Source: an uncultured Pelagibacteraceae bacterium (GTDB lineage: Bacteria > Pseudomonadota > Alphaproteobacteria > Pelagibacterales > Pelagibacteraceae). From it: a stretch of DNA of 64,000 nt. The DNA is taken from assembly GCA_902621345.1 (NCBI GenBank), contig CACNLV010000002.1, positions 32,320 through 96,319 of the forward strand, in the 5' to 3' direction. Within the stretch, counting starts at the first letter, position 1. Each line of letters starts with the position of its first letter. Under the pieces are notes generated by a model. It was not told where the DNA came from, did no database searches, and saw only the letters and a list, made by a program, of their open reading frames with translations. Both the position numbers and the translations under genes were made by a program. Below are positions 11,465-41,974 of this stretch, one piece after another.

Positions 11465-11573
11465 TATTTTTTTATAAAGATTACTTAACTAACAAAAAAG
11501 GCGATAAAATGGTATTGAATTAAACATATATTTGTTATTTAATGAATTACTCTTTAAAAAAATAAGTTTTATT

Positions 11574-11714
11574 ATCGGGAGAGACTATTTTTTAGCGCCG
11601 AAGGAGCAACCACCCCGGAAACTCTCAGGCAAAAGGACCGATCGAAGCATAACACTCTGGAAAGAGATTGATTTCCGCCGAAGGAGCAAAACTCTCAGGC
11701 AAAAATACAGATGG
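11574..11714 (+). promoter_or_regulatory. Tandem glycine riboswitch (two aptamers) in the glcB leader
   Basis: There are two copies of the glycine aptamer core. Aptamer 1 is GGGAGAG...GCGCCGAAGGAGCAA...CTCTCAGGCAAAAGGACCG, with P1 ATCGG/CCGAT. Aptamer 2 is CTCTGGAAAGAG...CCGCCGAAGGAGCAA...CTCTCAGGCAAAAATACAGA. This is a GC-rich island in AT-rich DNA, 19 nt before the glcB ATG. Confidence 0.88.
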
Positions 11715-33800: not shown

Positions 33801-35022
33801 AGAAATTGATCTTAGCTTAGATCGAATAAAAAATCTTTGCAAAAAATTGGGAAACCCACAAGATGAAATAAAGTGTATACAAGTCTGTGGAACTAATGGG
33901 AAAGGTAGTACAATTTCTTTTTTAAGATCTATACTTAGAGAAGCAAATATTAAATGTAATGTATACACCTCTCCTCATGTAAAGAGTATTAATGAGAGAT
34001 TTGTTTATAATGACGAAATGATCAGTGATAATGATTTATCTGATTTACTATCCAAAATTGAGGAAGTAAACAATAATCAACCTTTAACATATTTTGAAGC
34101 TCTCACAGCTGCATTTTTTTACGGATGCAAAAAGTATAAAGAAAATCTTGTGATTGCAGAATTTGGCTTATTTGGAAGAGGGGATGCTGTAAATATTCTA
34201 AAAAAAAATCTTTGTAATATTGTTACATCATGTAGTGAGGATCATTTGGACTGGCTTCCAGAAAATGACAGAACTATTGAAAGAATAATTTTTGAAAAAA
34301 CTTCCTCTTTACTAAATTCAAATATAGTAGTTGCTAAGCAAAATTCTAATGAAATTGTAGAATGTATTAAGAAAAATATATCTGAGAATAATGCAAATAA
34401 ATATTTTTTTAATGAAAATTACAATTTTGTATTAAAGGAAAATAATTTCTTTTATTATAAAGATAAATATGGTGGTTTAAAAATTCCTAAACCCAATTTA
34501 AACGGACAATTTCAACTTGAGAATGCTTCTACAGCAATTGCAACATTAAGAATTTTAGAAGATATAAAAATTAAGGACCAACACATAATAAATGGAGTTC
34601 AAAAAGCATCCCATATTGCTAGACTTGAGGAAATTAAATCTGGTAAACTAAAAAACTTAGTGAAAAATAATAAACTAATTCTTGATTCTTCACATAATCC
34701 TGGTGGATCAAAAGTTCTTAATGAATATCTTCAGACTTTAGATTGTAACAAACATGTTATTATAGGAATGATGGCTAATAAAAATCACGAAGAATACATA
34801 AGTTATTTTAAAAATATTTCATCTTTGACTACAGTTGATATACCAAATCAACCTAATGCAATAAGTGGAAAAGAATTAAAAGAAAAATTTAAGGATATAC
34901 CTAATGTTAATTATAAAGAGAGTATCCAAAAAGCTATTCGATCAATAAACTTAAAAGAGAACGATTTGCTTTTAATTACTGGTTCATTGTATTTAAGTGG
35001 AGAATTTTTAAATATTAATTAA
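33754..35022 (+). CDS. folC: Dihydrofolate synthase / folylpolyglutamate synthase
   Basis: Mur-ligase P-loop GTNGKGST. accD-folC synteny, with a 47-nt overlap with accD. Confidence 0.9.
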   Translation: MKLLRTLNRLQKLHPKEIDLSLDRIKNLCKKLGNPQDEIKCIQVCGTNGKGSTISFLRSILREANIKCNVYTSPHVKSINERFVYNDEMISDNDLSDLLSKIEEVNNNQPLTYFEALTAAFFYGCKKYKENLVIAEFGLFGRGDAVNILKKNLCNIVTSCSEDHLDWLPENDRTIERIIFEKTSSLLNSNIVVAKQNSNEIVECIKKNISENNANKYFFNENYNFVLKENNFFYYKDKYGGLKIPKPNLNGQFQLENASTAIATLRILEDIKIKDQHIINGVQKASHIARLEEIKSGKLKNLVKNNKLILDSSHNPGGSKVLNEYLQTLDCNKHVIIGMMANKNHEEYISYFKNISSLTTVDIPNQPNAISGKELKEKFKDIPNVNYKESIQKAIRSINLKENDLLLITGSLYLSGEFLNIN

Positions 35023-35336
35023 ATATTTTTTTCCAAAAATTCTTTCATGTTACTTTCTGGGACCCCACCAACTTTTCTGTCAACCTCAACACCTTTTTTA
35101 TAAATTATAACAGTTGGTACACCTCTTATCCCTGCAGCACTTCCTGTATTTATGCCTCCATCTTCAATATCAGCATAATAAAAACCAGCTTTATCCTTAT
35201 ACTCAACTGCTAACTTATCCATTATTGGTTTCAATGTCTTACAAGGACCACACCAAGCTGCTGAAAATTGAATTACAGATACATCCTCACTTTTGATTTT
35301 ACTTTCAAAATCTTCATCTTTGAAATCTATAAGCAT
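35019..35336 (-). CDS. trxA: Thioredoxin
   Basis: WCGPC active site. Length is 105 aa. Confidence 0.95.
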   Translation of the reverse strand: MLIDFKDEDFESKIKSEDVSVIQFSAAWCGPCKTLKPIMDKLAVEYKDKAGFYYADIEDGGINTGSAAGIRGVPTVIIYKKGVEVDRKVGGVPESNMKEFLEKNI

Positions 35337-35370: not shown

Positions 35371-36807
35371 CTACGTAAATTCATACTTTTTTTCAATTGA
35401 CATAATAAATTGGTTAATTTCATCCAATTTTTTTAATTCAACTTCATCATCTCTATTTGATGCTTGATCTCTTAAATAATCAATTTCAGTATAAGCCATA
35501 TTAATTGTTTGCCATTTTTCTTTGTTTTTACTTAAAATTCTTCTGGCAATTTCACTTTTAATATTTTTGTATAAGTCAGGTGGTAAGATTTGGGGTGCTT
35601 CTTGATAAATTATTTTTTGACCGAACCAACTACATCTTTTGTCCGTAAACTTGTCTAGTAATCTTAACTTATCCTCCCACGAGGAGCTGTGCCAAGTTTT
35701 AAATAATGCAGTATCTTTATTTGGAATAAATTTTTCATATAAAGTTTCTTCTGGTAATAAGTCTTCCTGAGTTTTGGTTTGTGCTTTTTCTTCAGCTGCT
35801 TCTCTGTGAATAATCTGAATATTTTTACAAAAATTTTCATTTTCCCTAACGAGTTTAGCTCTTTTTTGAATAATTGCTAAATCTAAGTCTAAGTAAGGCT
35901 TTTGTTTTAAAGCATACTCTTTACTCATAACTACTGGAGCTTTATTTGTTTTTAGAACCCTAAGTGCTTTAGGACTAAATTTTTTCAAAATATCTCTCAA
36001 TTGATTGACAGATAAATTTAAAAATGGTTCGGGATCTCTTCTTAGATCCCAAAGATATCCCCATGATGCGTATGAAGGATGAAAAGAATGCTTCGGGTGT
36101 AAGGTGCAAGCAAGGTACATCATATTTCTACCCTTAACATTTTCAAATATTGAATATATGCCATCATTTGTAAGTAATGTCTCCACACTTGTCTTTGTTG
36201 AAGTTTTTAGAAAAGTATCCCAATTATCTTTATGTTTATCTCTTATAATTCTAAGGACTTTTAATGAAGTATACGCATCGTGAAAAGCCGTGTGTTGTTG
36301 AGATGTATCAAATCCTTGCATTCTAGCTAATGCTTCTAAGGCTAGACTTGGGTTTCCAGCTTCAGTCAATTCTGTTTTCAAGGTTTCTGGGTTTAAAGTT
36401 TGTGCTGCCCTTGCTATATGCAAACCATCATGTTCTTGATTTGGTGAAGAGTGAGTAAGATAAGGATATCTATTTCCTTTAAAGAAATTAAAATGAAACA
36501 TTCTTCTATCAAAATTTAGGTTTGACCAACCCATAAACATTGCAGGACCAGCCTTTGAAAAAAAATTTTCTACTGCACCTAAAAATTCATAATGTGAATA
36601 ATTGCCTTTAGTTAGTAGATCAATACTTGTTGAATTAACAAGTAATGCCTTTGCACTTGGCACCTCTCCTTCTGGCATTCTGCCTCTAATATTAAGTTTT
36701 CCAATTTCTTTTAAATTTCTATCAACTACGACTGCTCCAACCTCAATTATTGAACCCCAGATTGTGCTATTAGTTGTTTCTGTATCGTAAATTACTATTT
36801 TATCCAT
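35371..36807 (-). CDS. sbcB: Exodeoxyribonuclease I-like DEDDh exonuclease
   Basis: N-terminal Exo motif YDTET, WSNLNFDRRMF (compare E. coli YNNVRFDDEV, from memory), HDAYTS (the H-x4-D motif) and a long helical C-terminal domain. The 478 aa length matches ExoI. Confidence 0.82.
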   Translation of the reverse strand: MDKIVIYDTETTNSTIWGSIIEVGAVVVDRNLKEIGKLNIRGRMPEGEVPSAKALLVNSTSIDLLTKGNYSHYEFLGAVENFFSKAGPAMFMGWSNLNFDRRMFHFNFFKGNRYPYLTHSSPNQEHDGLHIARAAQTLNPETLKTELTEAGNPSLALEALARMQGFDTSQQHTAFHDAYTSLKVLRIIRDKHKDNWDTFLKTSTKTSVETLLTNDGIYSIFENVKGRNMMYLACTLHPKHSFHPSYASWGYLWDLRRDPEPFLNLSVNQLRDILKKFSPKALRVLKTNKAPVVMSKEYALKQKPYLDLDLAIIQKRAKLVRENENFCKNIQIIHREAAEEKAQTKTQEDLLPEETLYEKFIPNKDTALFKTWHSSSWEDKLRLLDKFTDKRCSWFGQKIIYQEAPQILPPDLYKNIKSEIARRILSKNKEKWQTINMAYTEIDYLRDQASNRDDEVELKKLDEINQFIMSIEKKYEFT

Positions 36808-36809
36808 TT

Positions 36810-37580
36810 TTAAAATTCATTTAAATTTGAAAGTTCATGAAATTTTTTTAATCTTCCTAAAAACAAATTTTGATAGGTAATTAATTCAGTTCCTTGAATT
36901 TTAAATTCTTGAAACAAATTATCCACTGTACAAACAAGTATAACACAAGCATTGATATTAGAATTATAAACTACATTATGAGCTAATGAGTAGGCTGCGG
37001 TTTGTAGTAGCCAAGAATCTATATACTCTACTTTTTTTGGTTTATTAGATTGTTTAAAGTCAATTATGGTTTCCTTGCCCTCATATAGTCCAACACAATC
37101 TGCGGTGCCCGCAAACTTTTCAGGGTAATACATGGTGCACTCAACCCCATAGATTTCCTCTAACCTGTTTGTTAATCCTCTATCAATAATTTCTTTCGCC
37201 ATTTTTTTATATTGTTCATTATCCTCAAAAAAACTCAAATTTTCTCTTCCTAAAAGATAAGACTCTAAATAACTATGCATTTGAGATCCTCTACTACTAG
37301 CCGCCTTAGTAATTGCCTCTGCTTCTTTATAGCCAGTTCTTTCTCGCCAATTTGCTAATGCCGCTTTATCTTCCTCAGATTTTGTTGCATCAAGAATTGA
37401 TGTTACACTTGGTAATTTTGTTTCTCCTAAAACATATCTTCTTATTCCATCTTCTGTTGCTCTTGATGATGTAGGGTAATTGTATTTCTTATTCCAACGC
37501 ATGTGATTTCTTATAGTCGGTAATATGTGAAAAAAGAAATTATTTTTTGAGCTGTTTATTTCTTTCAACAAATTTCTCAA
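36810..37580 (-). CDS. PD-(D/E)XK nuclease, MGME1-like
   Basis: LPSVTSIL, GSQMHSYLESYL, DCVGLYEGKETIIDFKQSNKPK (D...D-x-K core) and LLQTAAY. The start may be the internal Met at 37502, which would remove the 41-nt overlap with rmuC. Confidence 0.7.
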   Translation of the reverse strand: MRNLLKEINSSKNNFFFHILPTIRNHMRWNKKYNYPTSSRATEDGIRRYVLGETKLPSVTSILDATKSEEDKAALANWRERTGYKEAEAITKAASSRGSQMHSYLESYLLGRENLSFFEDNEQYKKMAKEIIDRGLTNRLEEIYGVECTMYYPEKFAGTADCVGLYEGKETIIDFKQSNKPKKVEYIDSWLLQTAAYSLAHNVVYNSNINACVILVCTVDNLFQEFKIQGTELITYQNLFLGRLKKFHELSNLNEF

Positions 37581-38631
37581 CGTTCTCTGTTAGTACAGCC
37601 TTTTCAACTTGCTCGGGATCTTTAATATTTTCTAAAGTTCTAGTAATTGATCTTGCATCTTTTCCAAAACTATCAACAACTGTCATGGCCTCTTCAAGTT
37701 TTTTTCTTAATTTATAAATATTATCAAAATGACTAGAAAATCTCGTACTTATAGTTTTTAGATGATCATAAATCTCTGTTGCGTGTTTTGAAATTTTGAG
37801 AGATTGAAATCCCATGTGTAAAGACTGTAAATAAGCTGATAAAGTATTAGGGCCACAAATTACTATTTTATATTTTTTCATTAATTCTTGAGTTAATAAC
37901 TCTTTAGTGCTTGGGTCTTGGTACTCAGTTAACTCTTTATAAAGACTTTCAGTAGGAGCATATACTATTGCAAAATTTGACGTTTTTGGAGGAACGATAT
38001 ATTTCTCCATGACACTTTTTGCTTTGGCCTTAAATGCGCTTGCTAATTTTGTTCTAGCATCTGCAACTGCTTTTTTATTATCTGCCTCATGCGCATCTGT
38101 AATTGCCTTAAATTTTTCTATTGGAAAATGAGAGTCTACCGGAACCAAAACATCTCCTTGAAGCTTGATTGCAAATTCCACATTTTCACTGGTATCTTCT
38201 TTCATTTTGACATTGGTCATATATTGAGACGCAGGTAATAAATCTTTAATTAAAGCATCCAAAGAATATTCAGCTAAAGTTCCATACTTTTTAACCCCTG
38301 CTAAAATTTTAGTAATCCCCTCTTGGCTATGATTTAATAATTTAACTTGTTCGTTAAAATTCCCAACCTTCTCATCAACTTTAGTAAGTGCCTCGGTCAT
38401 GTCCTTTGTAACCCCAGTTGATAAAGAGTTAAATGATGTAGACATCGAACTTAGAGATGTATTGATTGTAGAGTTTAAACTATCTTTTAATCTAATAATT
38501 TCCGCATTTAAATTTGCTATTTCATTAGTCTCATCAGCTCCGTTCTCTTTCTTGGACTTTATATTTAAATACAAAATAGCCAAGATTGCTCCAAACATTA
38601 AAATCAAAATTATTAATAAAATTGTGTCCAT
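37540..38631 (-). CDS. rmuC: DNA recombination protein RmuC
   Basis: N-terminal TM helix, a coiled coil, and the RmuC domain (DSHFPIEKF, VYAPTESLY, VICGPNTL). Confidence 0.85.
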   Translation of the reverse strand: MDTILLIILILMFGAILAILYLNIKSKKENGADETNEIANLNAEIIRLKDSLNSTINTSLSSMSTSFNSLSTGVTKDMTEALTKVDEKVGNFNEQVKLLNHSQEGITKILAGVKKYGTLAEYSLDALIKDLLPASQYMTNVKMKEDTSENVEFAIKLQGDVLVPVDSHFPIEKFKAITDAHEADNKKAVADARTKLASAFKAKAKSVMEKYIVPPKTSNFAIVYAPTESLYKELTEYQDPSTKELLTQELMKKYKIVICGPNTLSAYLQSLHMGFQSLKISKHATEIYDHLKTISTRFSSHFDNIYKLRKKLEEAMTVVDSFGKDARSITRTLENIKDPEQVEKAVLTENVEKFVERNKQLKK

Positions 38632-39468: not shown

Positions 39469-40520
39469 TAAAAATTTAGATTAAGCGCAGCTCCAACTGC
39501 TGGTATTTGTTTTTTTGAACCAAGATCAGAAATTAGTTTGTCATAACGGCCACCATTACAACAATTAGCAATCTTTGACTTTGATTTAATATCGATTTTA
39601 AAAACCATTCCTGTATAATATTCCAGTTGCCGACCAAAGGCACTGGAGAAAACTACATTTAATTTGGATATTTTATTTTTTGAGATTGGGAAATATTTCT
39701 GATCGACGACAAGATTTATTCTGTTTTTCTTGAAAAATTTATTCAACTGACTCGCAGCTTTATTAATCGGACATTTAATTTTCAAAAATTCTTTAATAAT
39801 CTTTGAAACATTTTTTCCTCTGCTTGCTCTCCTTGGGTCCTTAATTTTTTTATCAAATCTTTCTAAAATTTCTTTAATAGTTCTACCTGCAACAATAGAT
39901 ATTTGGTCATCCTTTAACATTTTTAAATATCGTTTTTTATCAACTTCAACAATAGTTGGATCTACATCGGAATTAGTCTCTAATCTTTTTAATAAATCAC
40001 TGAAATAATCTTCTCTCCAAAAATGTCTTGTAAGTCTTAATTTCCATCTTTTTGGTATATCTAATTTAGATATTAGAAGATTAAAAATCTCCACATTACC
40101 AATAGTGAGAGTGCCTGTAGAATATTTTAGATCTTTGAGTGATTTAAGAGACGTATTTATTATTTCTTTGTCATCATTTTTTTCATCTTTTGATCCTATA
40201 ATCTCAAAGCCAACTTGATTTCTTATTATAGAGTCTTTTTTATTTTGAGATTTTCTGTAAGCCTGTCCACTATAAAATATTTTTTCTTTCCCCTTTAAAT
40301 TTTTTTCTAAATATCTTAGACAAGAGACGATTGTAAGATCCGGTCTTAGACATAATTCATTACCTGACTGATCTGTAAATGAAAAAATAAATTTCCTAAA
40401 ACTCTCACCTGATCGCTGCACTATATGATTTGTTTCAATAACAGAAGGTAATTCAATATATTTAAATCCTTTAGATTTTACCGATTTAAGAATTTTGTCA
40501 GATAAATTTTTTGATCTCAT
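39468..40520 (-). CDS. hisZ: ATP phosphoribosyltransferase regulatory subunit
   Basis: Paralogous to the HisRS catalytic core (LRPDLT, GGRYD) but with no anticodon-binding domain. Lies between hisS and hisG. Confidence 0.85.
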   Translation of the reverse strand: MRSKNLSDKILKSVKSKGFKYIELPSVIETNHIVQRSGESFRKFIFSFTDQSGNELCLRPDLTIVSCLRYLEKNLKGKEKIFYSGQAYRKSQNKKDSIIRNQVGFEIIGSKDEKNDDKEIINTSLKSLKDLKYSTGTLTIGNVEIFNLLISKLDIPKRWKLRLTRHFWREDYFSDLLKRLETNSDVDPTIVEVDKKRYLKMLKDDQISIVAGRTIKEILERFDKKIKDPRRASRGKNVSKIIKEFLKIKCPINKAASQLNKFFKKNRINLVVDQKYFPISKNKISKLNVVFSSAFGRQLEYYTGMVFKIDIKSKSKIANCCNGGRYDKLISDLGSKKQIPAVGAALNLNF

Positions 40521-41895
40521 TAATTAAATTTTCTTTTGGAAACGTTTTTTGGTTATTTTCACCTTTAATACCAAGTAAGTTTTTTAATGTTACTTTATTT
40601 TCCTTAAACTCATTTTCTCCACAAATTACTGCAACTGGGCACCCTCTTTTATTTGCATAAGTCAGTTGCTTGCCAAGATTTTTTTTACTATCTAAAAATA
40701 TTTCTGAATTAATGTTATTTTTTCTCAAATTATCTAAAATCTCATAATAATTTGGTAAATATTTTTCATCCATCACACATACAATTATCGGCTTTTGTTC
40801 ATCGATTTCTATCTGATCTAATTGCGTCATAGCAAATAGCAATCTATCAACACCAATACTTATACCAGTTCCAGGAATGTCTACACCTTTAAATCTAGAA
40901 ATTAATTTATCGTATTGTCCGCCTGAGCAAATGCTTCCAATATCAACTTCTTTACCTTTGTTATTTTTTACTTTAAAATTTAAATTTGTTTCAACACAAA
41001 AACCATCGTAATAATCAAGACCTCTAACAATTGTAAAATTGGTTTTAACTTGATCAAAATAAGATCCGAAAACTAAAATTTCAAAAAATTCCTCTAGTTC
41101 TTTAATTCCCTCTTGTGTAAGAGAGTTTTTAAAATTTTGTTTTAATTCCTTTAAATCCCTAATCTTTAAAAAATCTAAAATTTTTGCAGCTTGATCATTG
41201 CTTAGATCAGCTCCTTTTGTAATAGCTCCACTTTTATCTTTTCTCTCTTTTTTTAATAATTCCTCTACTCCCTTAAATCCAAAGTCAGGTTTATCTAATT
41301 TATCGATCGCTCTCATTACTTTAATCTTTTTATTTTCTGGGATTTTAAGGTCCTCAATTAAACCTTGAACAATTTTTCTATTACTAACATTAATAGTGAA
41401 CTGGTTTTTGTTTAAACCAACTTCAATCAATGTGCTTGCAATAAGATTGCATAATTCAGCATTTGCCTGTGCTGAATTGACGTTACCCACAATATCACAA
41501 TCTGCCTGTGTAAATTCTCTAAAACGAGCATTGCCAGACTTTTCATTTCTAAATACATTTTGAATAGCGTATCTTTTATATATTGAGGGAAGTTCTTGAT
41601 TGTTTTGTGCAACAAATCTTGCTAGTGGACTTGAGAGATCATATCTAAGAGTAATATTTTTTTCACCATCATTAAAAGAGAAAACATCAGACATAGGATT
41701 ACTATCATCCTCTGCAAGAAAGGATCCAATATTTTCTGCAATTTCAAATGACGGGGTCTCTAATGGATCAAATCCATATTTTATAAAATTCTTCTCAATA
41801 ACTTTTAAAAGTTTTTTTTTGAGAAATAATTTTTTATTCCATCTATCTTCAAATCCTGAGGGTAAACCAGGAATTAATTTATTATCTTTATTCAT
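40498..41895 (-). CDS. hisS: Histidine--tRNA ligase
   Basis: Class II motifs (LRYDLSSPLARF, FRNEKSGNARFREFTQ, GGQYD, GISIGVDR) plus an anticodon-binding domain. The start is set at the Met at 41895, because the longer ORF (to 41943) runs into the tRNA-His gene. Confidence 0.93.
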   Translation of the reverse strand: MNKDNKLIPGLPSGFEDRWNKKLFLKKKLLKVIEKNFIKYGFDPLETPSFEIAENIGSFLAEDDSNPMSDVFSFNDGEKNITLRYDLSSPLARFVAQNNQELPSIYKRYAIQNVFRNEKSGNARFREFTQADCDIVGNVNSAQANAELCNLIASTLIEVGLNKNQFTINVSNRKIVQGLIEDLKIPENKKIKVMRAIDKLDKPDFGFKGVEELLKKERKDKSGAITKGADLSNDQAAKILDFLKIRDLKELKQNFKNSLTQEGIKELEEFFEILVFGSYFDQVKTNFTIVRGLDYYDGFCVETNLNFKVKNNKGKEVDIGSICSGGQYDKLISRFKGVDIPGTGISIGVDRLLFAMTQLDQIEIDEQKPIIVCVMDEKYLPNYYEILDNLRKNNINSEIFLDSKKNLGKQLTYANKRGCPVAVICGENEFKENKVTLKNLLGIKGENNQKTFPKENLINEIKKFI

Positions 41896-41899
41896 TTTT

Positions 41900-41974
41900 T
41901 GGTACCCGGGCTGAGAGTCGAACTCAAACTTAAAGTTCCACAAACTTCCGTGCTAACCATTACACCACCCGGGC
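41900..41974 (-). tRNA. tRNA-His (anticodon GUG), CCA encoded, no encoded G-1
   Basis: The minus-strand cloverleaf is GCCCGGG TG GTGT AATGGTTA GCAC G GAAGT TTGTGGA ACTTT AAGT TTGAG TTCGACT CTCAG CCCGGGT A CCA. The anticodon loop is TT-GTG-GA. Confidence 0.93.

What the first reader, a model, noticed from the sequence alone, without database searches (positions are those of the whole stretch)
36810..37580. Bacterial homolog of mitochondrial genome maintenance exonuclease MGME1
The 256-aa protein matches, block for block, my memory of human MGME1. LPSVTSIL matches IPSVTRVL. GSQMHSYLESYL matches GKRFHEALESIL. DCVGLYEGKETIIDFKQSNKPK matches DCVAEYQGKLCVIDWKTSEKPK. LLQTAAY matches PLQVVAY. The C-terminal EL..YQNLFLGRLKKF matches EL.SQYWTKWLLRLEEY. 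That is much more specific than generic PD-(D/E)XK similarity. MGME1 is known as an animal mitochondrial enzyme that trims ssDNA flaps and degrades linear mtDNA. A close relative in a free-living alphaproteobacterium, inside a nuclease operon, bears on the origin of the mitochondrial enzyme and on its ancestral partners. The human sequence is quoted from memory and must be verified.
Basis: partly seen in the sequence, partly recalled or inferred. Interest (0 to 1): 0.65.

Follow-up and report, generated by a model that had tools for sequence, protein, structure and literature searches.

The report
SAR11 MGME1-family exonuclease, phage-type lineage
A conserved gene in the ocean bacterium Pelagibacter (SAR11) encodes a small DNA-end-trimming nuclease that is truly related to the human mitochondrial enzyme MGME1, but it belongs to a large, mostly phage-borne family, so it says little about where the mitochondrial enzyme came from.

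Summary
The ORF exists, and every quoted SAR11 and human motif is correct. Human MGME1 is the only solved structure matched by sequence (E=8e-11). It also takes the top nine fold matches, about six orders of magnitude ahead of RecE, Cas4 and AddA. A profile-profile comparison with MGME1 gives 99.75% probability.

Corrections:
- The real CDS is about 230 aa (ATG at 37502), not 256 aa.
- The protein is much closer to phage exonucleases than to MGME1. It scores 161 bits against PHROG 298 and is 42-51% identical to pelagiphage genes, against 23-27% to MGME1.
- Human MGME1 falls in the same PHROG family. It is as similar to T4-like cyanophage exonucleases as it is to the SAR11 protein.
- In bootstrapped NJ trees MGME1 never joined SAR11.

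The gene is chromosomal and sits in a conserved rmuC–exo–sbcB–trx cluster across Pelagibacteraceae. That linkage was not seen in the other eight contexts I examined.

Phage relatives of MGME1 were reported in 2013. IMG already names some SAR11 copies "genome maintenance exonuclease 1".

Verdict: a real homolog and a new member of a known family. The inference about mitochondrial origin is not supported. Interest is modest.

The parts
36810..37502 (-). Most likely CDS of the MGME1-family (PHROG 298-type) PD-(D/E)XK exonuclease, 230 aa, starting MRWNKKY. Catalytic and signature codons: W52 37349-37347, H76 37277-37275, E121 37142-37140, D135 37100-37098, D148 37061-37059, K150 37055-37053, Q167 37004-37002, Y171 36992-36990.
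   Evidence: ORF. Orthologs are 226-232 aa. The sequence was read. Invariant columns are and their MGME1 equivalents. The AF2 model has pLDDT 95.7.
37503..37580 (-). Upstream extension of the mechanical 256-aa ORF (TTG start). It is probably not translated. It covers the last 41 nt of rmuC plus the 37-nt rmuC-exo spacer.
   Evidence: Most homologs start at the MRWNKK/MKWNKK position.
37540..38631 (-). rmuC (DNA recombination protein RmuC family), directly upstream on the same strand.
   Evidence: Pfam RmuC PF02646, 168.5 bits. It lies next to the exonuclease gene in 78 of 80 Pelagibacteraceae loci and in divergent lineages.
35371..36807 (-). sbcB-like exodeoxyribonuclease I (a 3'-5' ssDNA exonuclease family). 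Its ATG lies 2 nt after the exonuclease stop codon.
   Evidence: Pfam Exonuc_X-T_C plus RNase_T. NCBIfam exodeoxyribonuclease I scores 112 bits, below the cutoff. PADLOC RTasSbcB scores 196 bits. Spacing is and synteny.
35019..35336 (-). Thioredoxin gene, last gene of the same-strand cluster before the convergent folC.
   Evidence: Pfam Thioredoxin is recorded at the equivalent position in L088 and L101.

Best explanation
The gene encodes a stand-alone, single-domain, metal-dependent DNA exonuclease of about 230 aa with the RecB/RecE-type PD-(D/E)XK fold. It belongs to the family that holds PHROG 298 phage exonucleases and opisthokont MGME1.

Shown here:
- The fold and family assignment.
- A complete active site.
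- A chromosomal location that is conserved across Pelagibacteraceae.
- Tight packing with rmuC and an exonuclease I gene.
- Presence of the gene in seawater metatranscriptome assemblies.

Inferred by analogy with the MGME1 structures and biochemistry: it threads a free single-stranded DNA end under a flexible helical arch and cuts by two-metal catalysis. The catalytic residues would be H76, E121, D135, D148 and K150, with Q167 and Y171 supporting them. W52 corresponds to one residue of the MGME1 duplex-unwinding pin.

Inferred from gene order: in SAR11 it is co-expressed with RmuC and with ExoI, a 3'-5' ssDNA exonuclease. It would supply the complementary, 5'-end-capable ssDNA degradation. Together they would trim flaps, gaps and linear or displaced strands during replication, repair and recombination.

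Evolution: the SAR11 copy is a host-resident branch of a mainly phage-borne family. It was most likely captured from a pelagiphage-like source before the sampled Pelagibacteraceae diverged. It is a cousin of MGME1, not its alphaproteobacterial ancestor.
For: Family and fold:
- Only MGME1 is hit in PDB by sequence.
- The Foldseek top nine are all MGME1, with TM 0.70-0.74 on the query.
- hhalign against MGME1 gives 99.75% probability.
- PHROG 298 scores 160.7 bits across residues 7-221.
- BFVD phage exonucleases reach TM 0.76-0.87.

Active site: W52, G72, H76, E121, G132, D135, D148, K150, Q167 and Y171 are invariant across 89 family members. They align with MGME1 W152, H180, E223, D238, D251, K253, Q271 and Y275 (residue roles from PMC6237815 and PMC3597694). 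The only lower-confidence part of the model is residues 81-100, between two long helices. This may correspond to the flexible arch.

Chromosomal and conserved:
- 514 species genomes matched the search pattern, and the best 80 are all Pelagibacteraceae.
- rmuC-exo-sbcB is present in 78 of those 80 loci, and trx as well in 76.
- The arrangement persists where the exonuclease is only 76% or 62% identical and sbcB only 53%.
- The neighbours are housekeeping genes (his, trp, accD, folC).

Operon: the spacers are 37 nt and 2 nt. Metatranscriptome contigs cover the gene and span both junctions.

Phage affinity:
- 928 phage records are hit, the best being Pelagibacter phages at about 42% identity.
- The six relatives at 42-51% identity that I checked all sit on phage-like contigs.
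- A seventh, at 45%, sits in a different chromosomal context, ftsH-exo-folP, in another marine proteobacterium.
Against: - No biochemistry exists for any bacterial or phage member, so substrate and polarity are extrapolated from human MGME1 at about 25% identity.
- F173, the second residue of the MGME1 pin, is Ser in SAR11.
- Co-transcription rests on short metatranscriptome contigs from mixed populations, which may contain DNA.
- The promoter and terminator scans were no better than shuffled sequence.
- The direction of transfer (phage to SAR11 or the reverse) is inferred from distribution only.
- The NJ tree is crude and prone to long-branch attraction, and it contains only amniote MGME1 sequences.
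- I could not list the 434 genome hits beyond the best 80, so the distribution in other Alphaproteobacteria is unknown.
Confidence: 0.72

Rival explanations
1. The SAR11 protein represents the alphaproteobacterial lineage from which mitochondrial MGME1 descends through the endosymbiont, and its operon partners RmuC and SbcB hint at ancestral partners of MGME1.
For: The homology is real and specific. The host is an alphaproteobacterium. The gene is an old chromosomal resident within Pelagibacteraceae.
Against: - MGME1 is no closer to SAR11 (59.7 bits, 23-27% identity) than to cyanophage or Agrobacterium-phage exonucleases (66-67 bits).
- MGME1 never grouped with SAR11 in 300 bootstrap trees.
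- The SAR11 protein is 42-51% identical to phage genes.
- The rmuC/sbcB linkage is absent from the one other chromosomal context examined.
- MGME1 is reported only in Opisthokonta, not across eukaryotes, and was already proposed to come from phage (PMC3597694).
Confidence: 0.05
2. The enzyme mainly serves nucleotide economy. Together with ExoI it degrades single-stranded or linear DNA (damaged, displaced or imported) to mononucleotides for reuse in a nutrient-starved, streamlined cell. This parallels the dNTP-recycling role proposed for the pelagiphage copy.
For: - A pelagiphage (vSAG 37-F6) gene annotated 'genome maintenance exonuclease 1' has been proposed to recycle dNTPs (PMC12404659).
- A KO-based count lists MGME1 among abundant open-ocean functions (PMC10834444).
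- One phage relative lies beside ribonucleotide reductase genes.
- The gene is paired with a second ssDNA exonuclease.
Against: There is no direct evidence. The neighbour rmuC points to recombination control rather than salvage, and no nucleotide-salvage or DNA-uptake genes lie in the cluster. This role is also not exclusive of a repair role.
Confidence: 0.13
3. The gene is a prophage remnant or part of an anti-phage defence locus, degrading invading linear DNA, rather than a housekeeping function.
For: - The nearest non-SAR11 relatives are phage genes.
- In one SAR11 genome a DruA-like/HATPase island abuts rmuC.
- The sbcB-like neighbour scores best against a defence-associated SbcB model.
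Against: - The position is fixed among his, trp, accD and folC genes in 78 of 80 species loci and in deeply divergent lineages. That is unlike mobile defence islands.
- No other phage genes, integrase or reverse transcriptase were seen among the ORFs around the gene.
- PADLOC gives only weak Cas4-like hits for the exonuclease (21 bits) and nothing meaningful for RmuC.
Confidence: 0.08
4. It is only a generic Cas4/RecB-type PD-(D/E)XK nuclease, and the MGME1 resemblance is superficial.
For: Pfam PDDEXK_1 is the only Pfam family hit and it is below threshold (19 bits against 22). Weak Cas4 hits appear in PHROGs and PADLOC.
Against: - MGME1 leads every other solved structure by about six orders of magnitude in Foldseek E-value and is the only sequence hit in PDB.
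- Both proteins share PHROG 298 as their best family by a wide margin (160.7 bits against 36, and 82.7 against 21).
- No conserved cysteines of the Cas4 Fe-S type appear among the invariant columns.
Confidence: 0.02

Closest known systems
Human/opisthokont MGME1 (Ddk1, C20orf72; PDB 5ZYT/5ZYU/5ZYV/5ZYW, 8XA9)
   Same: - Same RecB/RecE-type PD-(D/E)XK fold (Foldseek TM 0.70-0.85).
- Same motif set: H (Ia), E (I), D (II), DxK (III), QhxxY (IV).
- Same PSVT N-terminal motif, the conserved Trp of the unwinding pin, and a similar C-terminal helix.
- The mechanism is therefore probably the same: metal-dependent, end-dependent ssDNA exonuclease.
   Different: - Only 23-27% identical.
- It lacks the roughly 125-residue N-terminal extension that holds the mitochondrial targeting signal. 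Instead it has a 27-residue N-terminal beta-hairpin shared with the phage members.
- Pin residue F173 is not conserved.
- It does not group with MGME1 in trees.
- It works in a bacterial chromosome beside rmuC and sbcB, not with POLG and Twinkle.
PHROG 298 phage exonucleases (for example Pelagibacter phage HTVC027P gp27 and HTVC023P gp85, the T4-like cyanophage 'exonuclease' Syn1_239, and jumbo-phage exonucleases of PA5oct, 121Q and Atu_ph07); IMG product name 'genome maintenance exonuclease 1'
   Same: - Full-length profile match (160.7 bits).
- Same length, N-terminal hairpin and invariant residues.
- 35-51% identity.
- Predicted structures superpose at TM 0.76-0.87.
This is the family the SAR11 protein belongs to.
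   Different: The SAR11 copy is a fixed chromosomal gene in a housekeeping neighbourhood with conserved rmuC and sbcB partners. Phage copies sit among replication and nucleotide-metabolism genes: DNA polymerase A, SNF2/UvrD helicases, RNR, phoH and gp33. No member has been characterised biochemically, as far as my searches showed.
RecE, RecB/AddA nuclease domains and Cas4
   Same: Same superfamily fold and core D...D-x-K catalytic chemistry. They appear as distant structural matches (E 1e-5 to 1e-3).
   Different: The similarity is much weaker (TM 0.35-0.49). There are no helicase partner domains. No Cas4 Fe-S cysteines are conserved. The HMM scores are weak.

Membership tests
MGME1 orthologous group (opisthokont mitochondrial MGME1/Ddk1) | RecB/RecE-type PD-(D/E)XK motif set: His (Ia/V), Glu (I), Asp (II), Asp-x-Lys (III), Q-h-x-x-Y (IV) | tested here: met
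   H76, E121, D135, D148, K150, Q167 and Y171 align with H180, E223, D238, D251, K253, Q271 and Y275 (residue roles from PMC6237815 and PMC3597694).
MGME1 orthologous group (opisthokont mitochondrial MGME1/Ddk1) | MGME1 is the nearest solved structure by sequence and by fold | tested here: met
   It is the only PDB sequence hit, E=8e-11. The Foldseek top nine are all MGME1, at 7e-13 to 4e-11, and the next hit is at 6e-6.
MGME1 orthologous group (opisthokont mitochondrial MGME1/Ddk1) | Groups with eukaryotic MGME1 to the exclusion of phage and other prokaryotic exonucleases (orthology) | tested here: not met
   - PHROG 298 scores 160.7 bits, against 45 bits (phmmer) for MGME1.
- More than 150 representative clusters score above 108 bits, all ahead of MGME1.
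- The neighbour of MGME1 in 300 NJ bootstraps was T4-like phages in about 88% and SAR11 in 0%.
Caveats: this is an NJ tree only, it includes only amniote MGME1, and long-branch attraction is possible.
MGME1 orthologous group (opisthokont mitochondrial MGME1/Ddk1) | N-terminal mitochondrial targeting sequence and long N-terminal extension | tested here: not met
   The protein starts 27 residues before the PSVT motif. Human MGME1 has about 125 residues there.
MGME1 orthologous group (opisthokont mitochondrial MGME1/Ddk1) | Duplex-unwinding pin (W152 + F173) | tested here: inconclusive
   W152 corresponds to the invariant W52. F173 aligns with Ser.
MGME1 orthologous group (opisthokont mitochondrial MGME1/Ddk1) | ssDNA-preferring, free-end-dependent, bidirectional DNase activity | not testable with these tools
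   This needs purified protein.
PHROG 298 / 'genome maintenance exonuclease 1'-like phage and bacterial exonucleases | Near full-length match to the family profile | tested here: met
   160.7 bits, E=1e-46, residues 7-221 of 230. Human MGME1 also matches this profile best, at 82.7 bits.
PHROG 298 / 'genome maintenance exonuclease 1'-like phage and bacterial exonucleases | Single domain of about 220-240 aa with an N-terminal Y..R....G.R.Y hairpin, the LPSVTTIL motif and invariant catalytic residues | tested here: met
   89-sequence alignment A1, 8-sequence alignment A2 and the AF2 secondary structure.
PHROG 298 / 'genome maintenance exonuclease 1'-like phage and bacterial exonucleases | Residence in a phage genome | tested here: not met
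   The gene is chromosomal, with housekeeping neighbours and conserved synteny. This is a difference of setting, not of protein family.
Pfam PDDEXK_1 (PF12705) | Score at or above the gathering threshold (22 bits) | tested here: not met
   19.0 bits, E=0.0015. The human MGME1 core scores 28.8 bits. It is a superfamily member by fold, but below the curated cutoff.
Cas4 | Conserved Fe-S cluster cysteines and a strong Cas4 profile match | tested here: not met
   No Cys appears among the invariant or nearly invariant columns. PADLOC Cas4_II scores 21 bits and PHROG 1706 scores 36 bits.

The most novel reading that the evidence does not exclude
SAR11 and the opisthokont mitochondrion each independently domesticated the same phage exonuclease. 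In SAR11 it became fixed in a compact three-nuclease module (RmuC, the MGME1-like exonuclease and ExoI). That module would act as the cell's minimal machine for clearing ssDNA ends and linear DNA, much as MGME1 clears flaps and linear mtDNA. If so, SAR11 would offer a bacterial setting for studying MGME1-type biology, and marine phages would be the reservoir from which both hosts drew the enzyme.
Probability: 0.3. Interest if true: 0.5.

Novelty: new member of a known kind. Interest (0 to 1): 0.3.

Why it matters
This assigns a confident family and a likely activity to a conserved gene that NCBI and RefSeq call 'hypothetical protein' in one of the most abundant bacteria in the surface ocean. 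It also points to a conserved rmuC–exonuclease–sbcB cluster that could be tested as a unit.

It does not change the picture of where MGME1 came from. The evidence fits the published idea that MGME1, like POLRMT, POLG and Twinkle, is related to phage enzymes. The SAR11 copy is a parallel host-resident branch of that phage family.

The finding also carries a practical warning. KO-based counts of 'MGME1' in ocean metagenomes probably count SAR11 and phage genes, not mitochondrial ones.

Tried and rejected
- The 256-aa TTG start was rejected in favour of ATG 37502. The longer ORF overlaps rmuC, and orthologs are 226-232 aa.
- A genome-collection scan with the 89-sequence alignment failed because the alignment had no sufficiently conserved stretch.
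- The repeat scan with 8 sequences returned only the 80 best loci, all Pelagibacteraceae.
- A search seeded with human MGME1 returned only amniote MGME1 sequences. No invertebrate, choanoflagellate or filasterean sequences were available for the tree.
- The profile search of the big protein collection returned mostly unnamed metagenomic proteins, so it gave little taxonomy.
- Promoter and terminator scans found no more sites than in shuffled sequence.
- A literature search for the SAR11 recombination-nuclease repertoire (recJ, addA, sbcB, rmuC) found nothing on Pelagibacter. Whether the enzyme replaces a missing RecJ or RecBCD stays open.
- Defence-system models gave only weak Cas4-like hits for the exonuclease, so a defence role was not adopted.
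- No maximum-likelihood tree software was available. The phylogeny is neighbour-joining on Kimura-corrected distances with bootstraps.
Full report
**1. The observation**

The window has about 29% G+C throughout.

A phmmer search of all PDB chain sequences at E<=10 returned four sequences, and all four are human MGME1 (8XA9, 5ZYU/5ZYW, 5ZYT, 5ZYV). The best E-value is 8e-11, covering residues 50-249 of the ORF. I copied the aligned human segment (207 aa) from that output. A later search confirmed it is 100% identical to entries named human MGME1. The recalled accession Q9BQP7 also appears in a phage annotation note, 'BLAST homology to human Q9BQP7'.

The TTG start overlaps the 3' end of rmuC, and orthologs, including a RefSeq model, are 226-232 aa. 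The sequence has an ATG at 37502 (MRWNKKY...), 37 nt after the rmuC stop codon. The stop codon at 36812-36810 lies 2 nt before the ATG of the next gene. The CDS is most likely 36810-37502, 230 aa.

**2. How specific the MGME1 resemblance is**

It is very specific among solved structures. An AlphaFold2 model built on an 89-sequence family alignment has mean pLDDT 95.7. Foldseek against PDB puts nine MGME1 chains first (E 7e-13 to 4e-11, TM on the query 0.70-0.74). The next matches are a DinG nuclease domain (6e-6), RecE (1.7e-5), ACE1/Cas4, AdnA and AddA.

hhalign of the family alignment against ten amniote MGME1 sequences gives 99.75% probability, E=2e-27, over 198 columns.

Ten columns are invariant across the 89 family members: W52, G72, H76, E121, G132, D135, D148, K150, Q167 and Y171. 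Eight of them correspond to MGME1 W152, H180, E223, D238, D251, K253, Q271 and Y275. According to the MGME1 papers, these are one residue of the unwinding pin and the full catalytic and support set (PMC6237815, PMC3597694). The second pin residue, F173, aligns with a serine. Pfam PDDEXK_1 is hit only below threshold (19 bits against 22).

**3. What the protein is closest to**

It is not closest to MGME1.

- Against PHROGs, the protein matches family 298 ('exonuclease') at 160.7 bits over residues 7-221. The next family scores 36 bits.
- tblastn against 50,697 phage records hits 928 of them. The best are Pelagibacter phages HTVC023P and HTVC027P and a related phage (about 42% identity, E 1e-52 to 1e-56). 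Then come jumbo phages (PA5oct, Atu_ph07, 121Q and others) and hundreds of Synechococcus and Prochlorococcus myoviruses.
- An exhaustive HMMER search of 1.84 billion cluster representatives found 3,431 clusters at E<=1e-3 and 103 at E<=1e-30. The 150 best all score above 108 bits. MGME1 scores 45 bits under phmmer.
- Predicted viral structures superpose better (TM 0.76-0.87) than MGME1 does.

The human MGME1 core also has PHROG 298 as its best family by far (82.7 bits against 21 for the next), so both proteins belong to one family. The human core hits 489 phage records. The best are T4-like cyanophages (Syn1, S-RIM44, S-H9-2; 27.5% identity, 66-67 bits) and Agrobacterium phage Atu_ph07 (29.6%, 66 bits). 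Human against SAR11 is 59.7 bits at 27% identity.

I built a 34-taxon alignment (216 columns): SAR11, other metagenomic representatives, nine phages and six amniote MGME1 sequences. Human MGME1 is 20.8-28.5% identical to all non-eukaryotic members, and the window protein stands at 23.1%. In the neighbour-joining tree:

- SAR11 forms a 100% clade, nested among marine metagenomic and pelagiphage sequences.
- MGME1 joins the T4-like phage sequences Moby, Syn1 and S-H9-2 (70% bootstrap for that bipartition).
- In 300 further replicates, the neighbour group of MGME1 consisted of one or more of those phages in about 88%, and it never contained SAR11.

This tree is crude. It uses NJ, a long MGME1 branch and only amniotes, so I use it only to say there is no signal for a SAR11-MGME1 sister relationship.

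**4. Genomic setting**

The genome-collection scan matched 514 species genomes with one narrow peptide pattern. The 80 best are all Pelagibacteraceae at 92-99% identity, which identifies the window's organism.

In those 80 loci rmuC lies upstream and the sbcB-like gene downstream in 78. The other two are cut short on the rmuC side. The same order holds in a genome where the exonuclease is 76% identical. It also holds in a divergent lineage where it is 62% identical, sbcB only 53% and thioredoxin 34% (hisS-hisZ-hisG-rmuC-exo-sbcB-trx-folC-accD-trpA-trpB). The cluster is therefore old within the group and lies among housekeeping genes.

The neighbours are a RmuC-family protein (Pfam, 168.5 bits) and an exonuclease I-like protein (Exonuc_X-T_C plus RNase_T; NCBIfam ExoI at 112 bits, below its cutoff). 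Seawater metatranscriptome assemblies contain contigs that cover the gene and span both the rmuC/exo and the exo/sbcB junctions. This is consistent with expression and co-transcription. It is not proof, because the contigs are short, come from mixed populations and may include DNA.

Outside SAR11 the linkage was not seen.

- A 45%-identical relative lies between ftsH and folP (carAB ... rlmE-ftsH-exo-folP-glmM-tpiA-secG) in marine 'Pseudomonadota' single-cell genomes. From my own knowledge, this gene order is typical of Gammaproteobacteria.
- The six other relatives I looked up, at 42-51% identity, are all on phage-like contigs. Those contigs carry DNA polymerase A, SNF2 and UvrD helicases and a primase, helicase PHROGs, small terminase and GP88, ribonucleotide reductase or endonuclease VII.
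- In T4-like cyanophages the gene is an annotated T4-like gene cluster member between phoH and gp33.

The family is thus broad in phages of many hosts and patchy in bacterial chromosomes. That makes capture from a phage by an early SAR11 ancestor the more economical reading, but the direction of transfer is an inference.

**5. Mechanism**

Shown: the fold, an intact active site, conservation and gene order.

Inferred from the MGME1 structures: a free ssDNA end passes under a helical arch to a two-metal site formed by the His/Asp/Asp-x-Lys residues. The one less confident region of the model, residues 81-100 between two long helices, may be that arch.

Inferred from the operon: with ExoI (3'-5') and RmuC, the enzyme would process ssDNA ends, flaps and linear DNA during replication, repair and recombination. 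A nucleotide-recycling role, as proposed for the pelagiphage vSAG 37-F6 homolog (PMC12404659), is a plausible alternative or additional function. A defence role has little support.

**6. What is already known**

- Szczesny et al. 2013 (PMC3597694) reported that Ddk1/MGME1-like proteins occur only in Opisthokonta. They group with archaeal and phage or prophage exonucleases, mostly from phages of cyanobacteria and proteobacteria. The authors proposed a phage-related origin like that of POLRMT, POLG and Twinkle.
- JGI/IMG names many members 'genome maintenance exonuclease 1', including members of SAR11 chromosomal clusters. NCBI and RefSeq call the SAR11 protein 'hypothetical protein'.
- An ocean metagenome paper lists MGME1 among abundant open-ocean functions (PMC10834444).
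- A full-text search found no paper that discusses the SAR11 gene or its operon.

**7. Verdict**

The homology claim is right and well founded. The evolutionary significance attached to it is not supported. The gene is a new, uncharacterised, host-resident member of a known phage/MGME1 exonuclease family. The only new element is its conserved rmuC-exo-sbcB cluster in SAR11. Interest is 0.3.

Noticed in passing
window 41900-41974 (-) and 40498-41943 (-): A tRNA-His gene (anticodon GTG) lies immediately upstream of the histidyl-tRNA synthetase gene and overlaps the TTG start of its mechanical ORF. The real hisS start is probably the downstream MNKDNK (about 41895). tRNA-His, hisS, hisZ and hisG therefore form one same-strand block just upstream of rmuC (HisS is 466 aa in L101).
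   Followed up: partly
window 35371-36807 (-): The sbcB-like exonuclease scores much better against the PADLOC model 'RTasSbcB' (reverse-transcriptase-associated SbcB of DRT systems, 196 bits) than against the NCBIfam exodeoxyribonuclease I equivalog (112 bits, cutoff 260). No reverse transcriptase was seen among the ORFs around it. It may be a divergent ExoI subfamily.
   Followed up: no
L088 1-3950 (GCA_003214455.1 contig QCLP01000001.1): In one Pelagibacteraceae genome the hisS-hisZ-hisG block upstream of rmuC is replaced by genes with DruA (Druantia-like) and HATPase_c_3 domains plus small ORFs. This suggests a variable, defence-like island abutting the conserved rmuC-exo-sbcB cluster.
   Followed up: no
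window 11566-11650 (+): A glycine riboswitch aptamer matches above the Rfam gathering score (63 bits).
   Followed up: no
L098 144-797 (Stenotrophomonas phage Moby CPT_Moby_063): This phage homolog has Asp in place of the motif Ia His and Gln in place of the motif I Glu, while keeping D, DxK and QxxxY. Its GenBank note already cites BLAST homology to human Q9BQP7. It and the cyanophage copies both lie next to the gp33-like late-transcription coactivator gene.
   Followed up: partly
L081-L083 8001-8702: A 45%-identical chromosomal homolog is inserted between ftsH and folP in marine 'Pseudomonadota' single-cell genomes (35% G+C). This looks like a second, independent chromosomal fixation of the family in another streamlined marine lineage.
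   Followed up: partly
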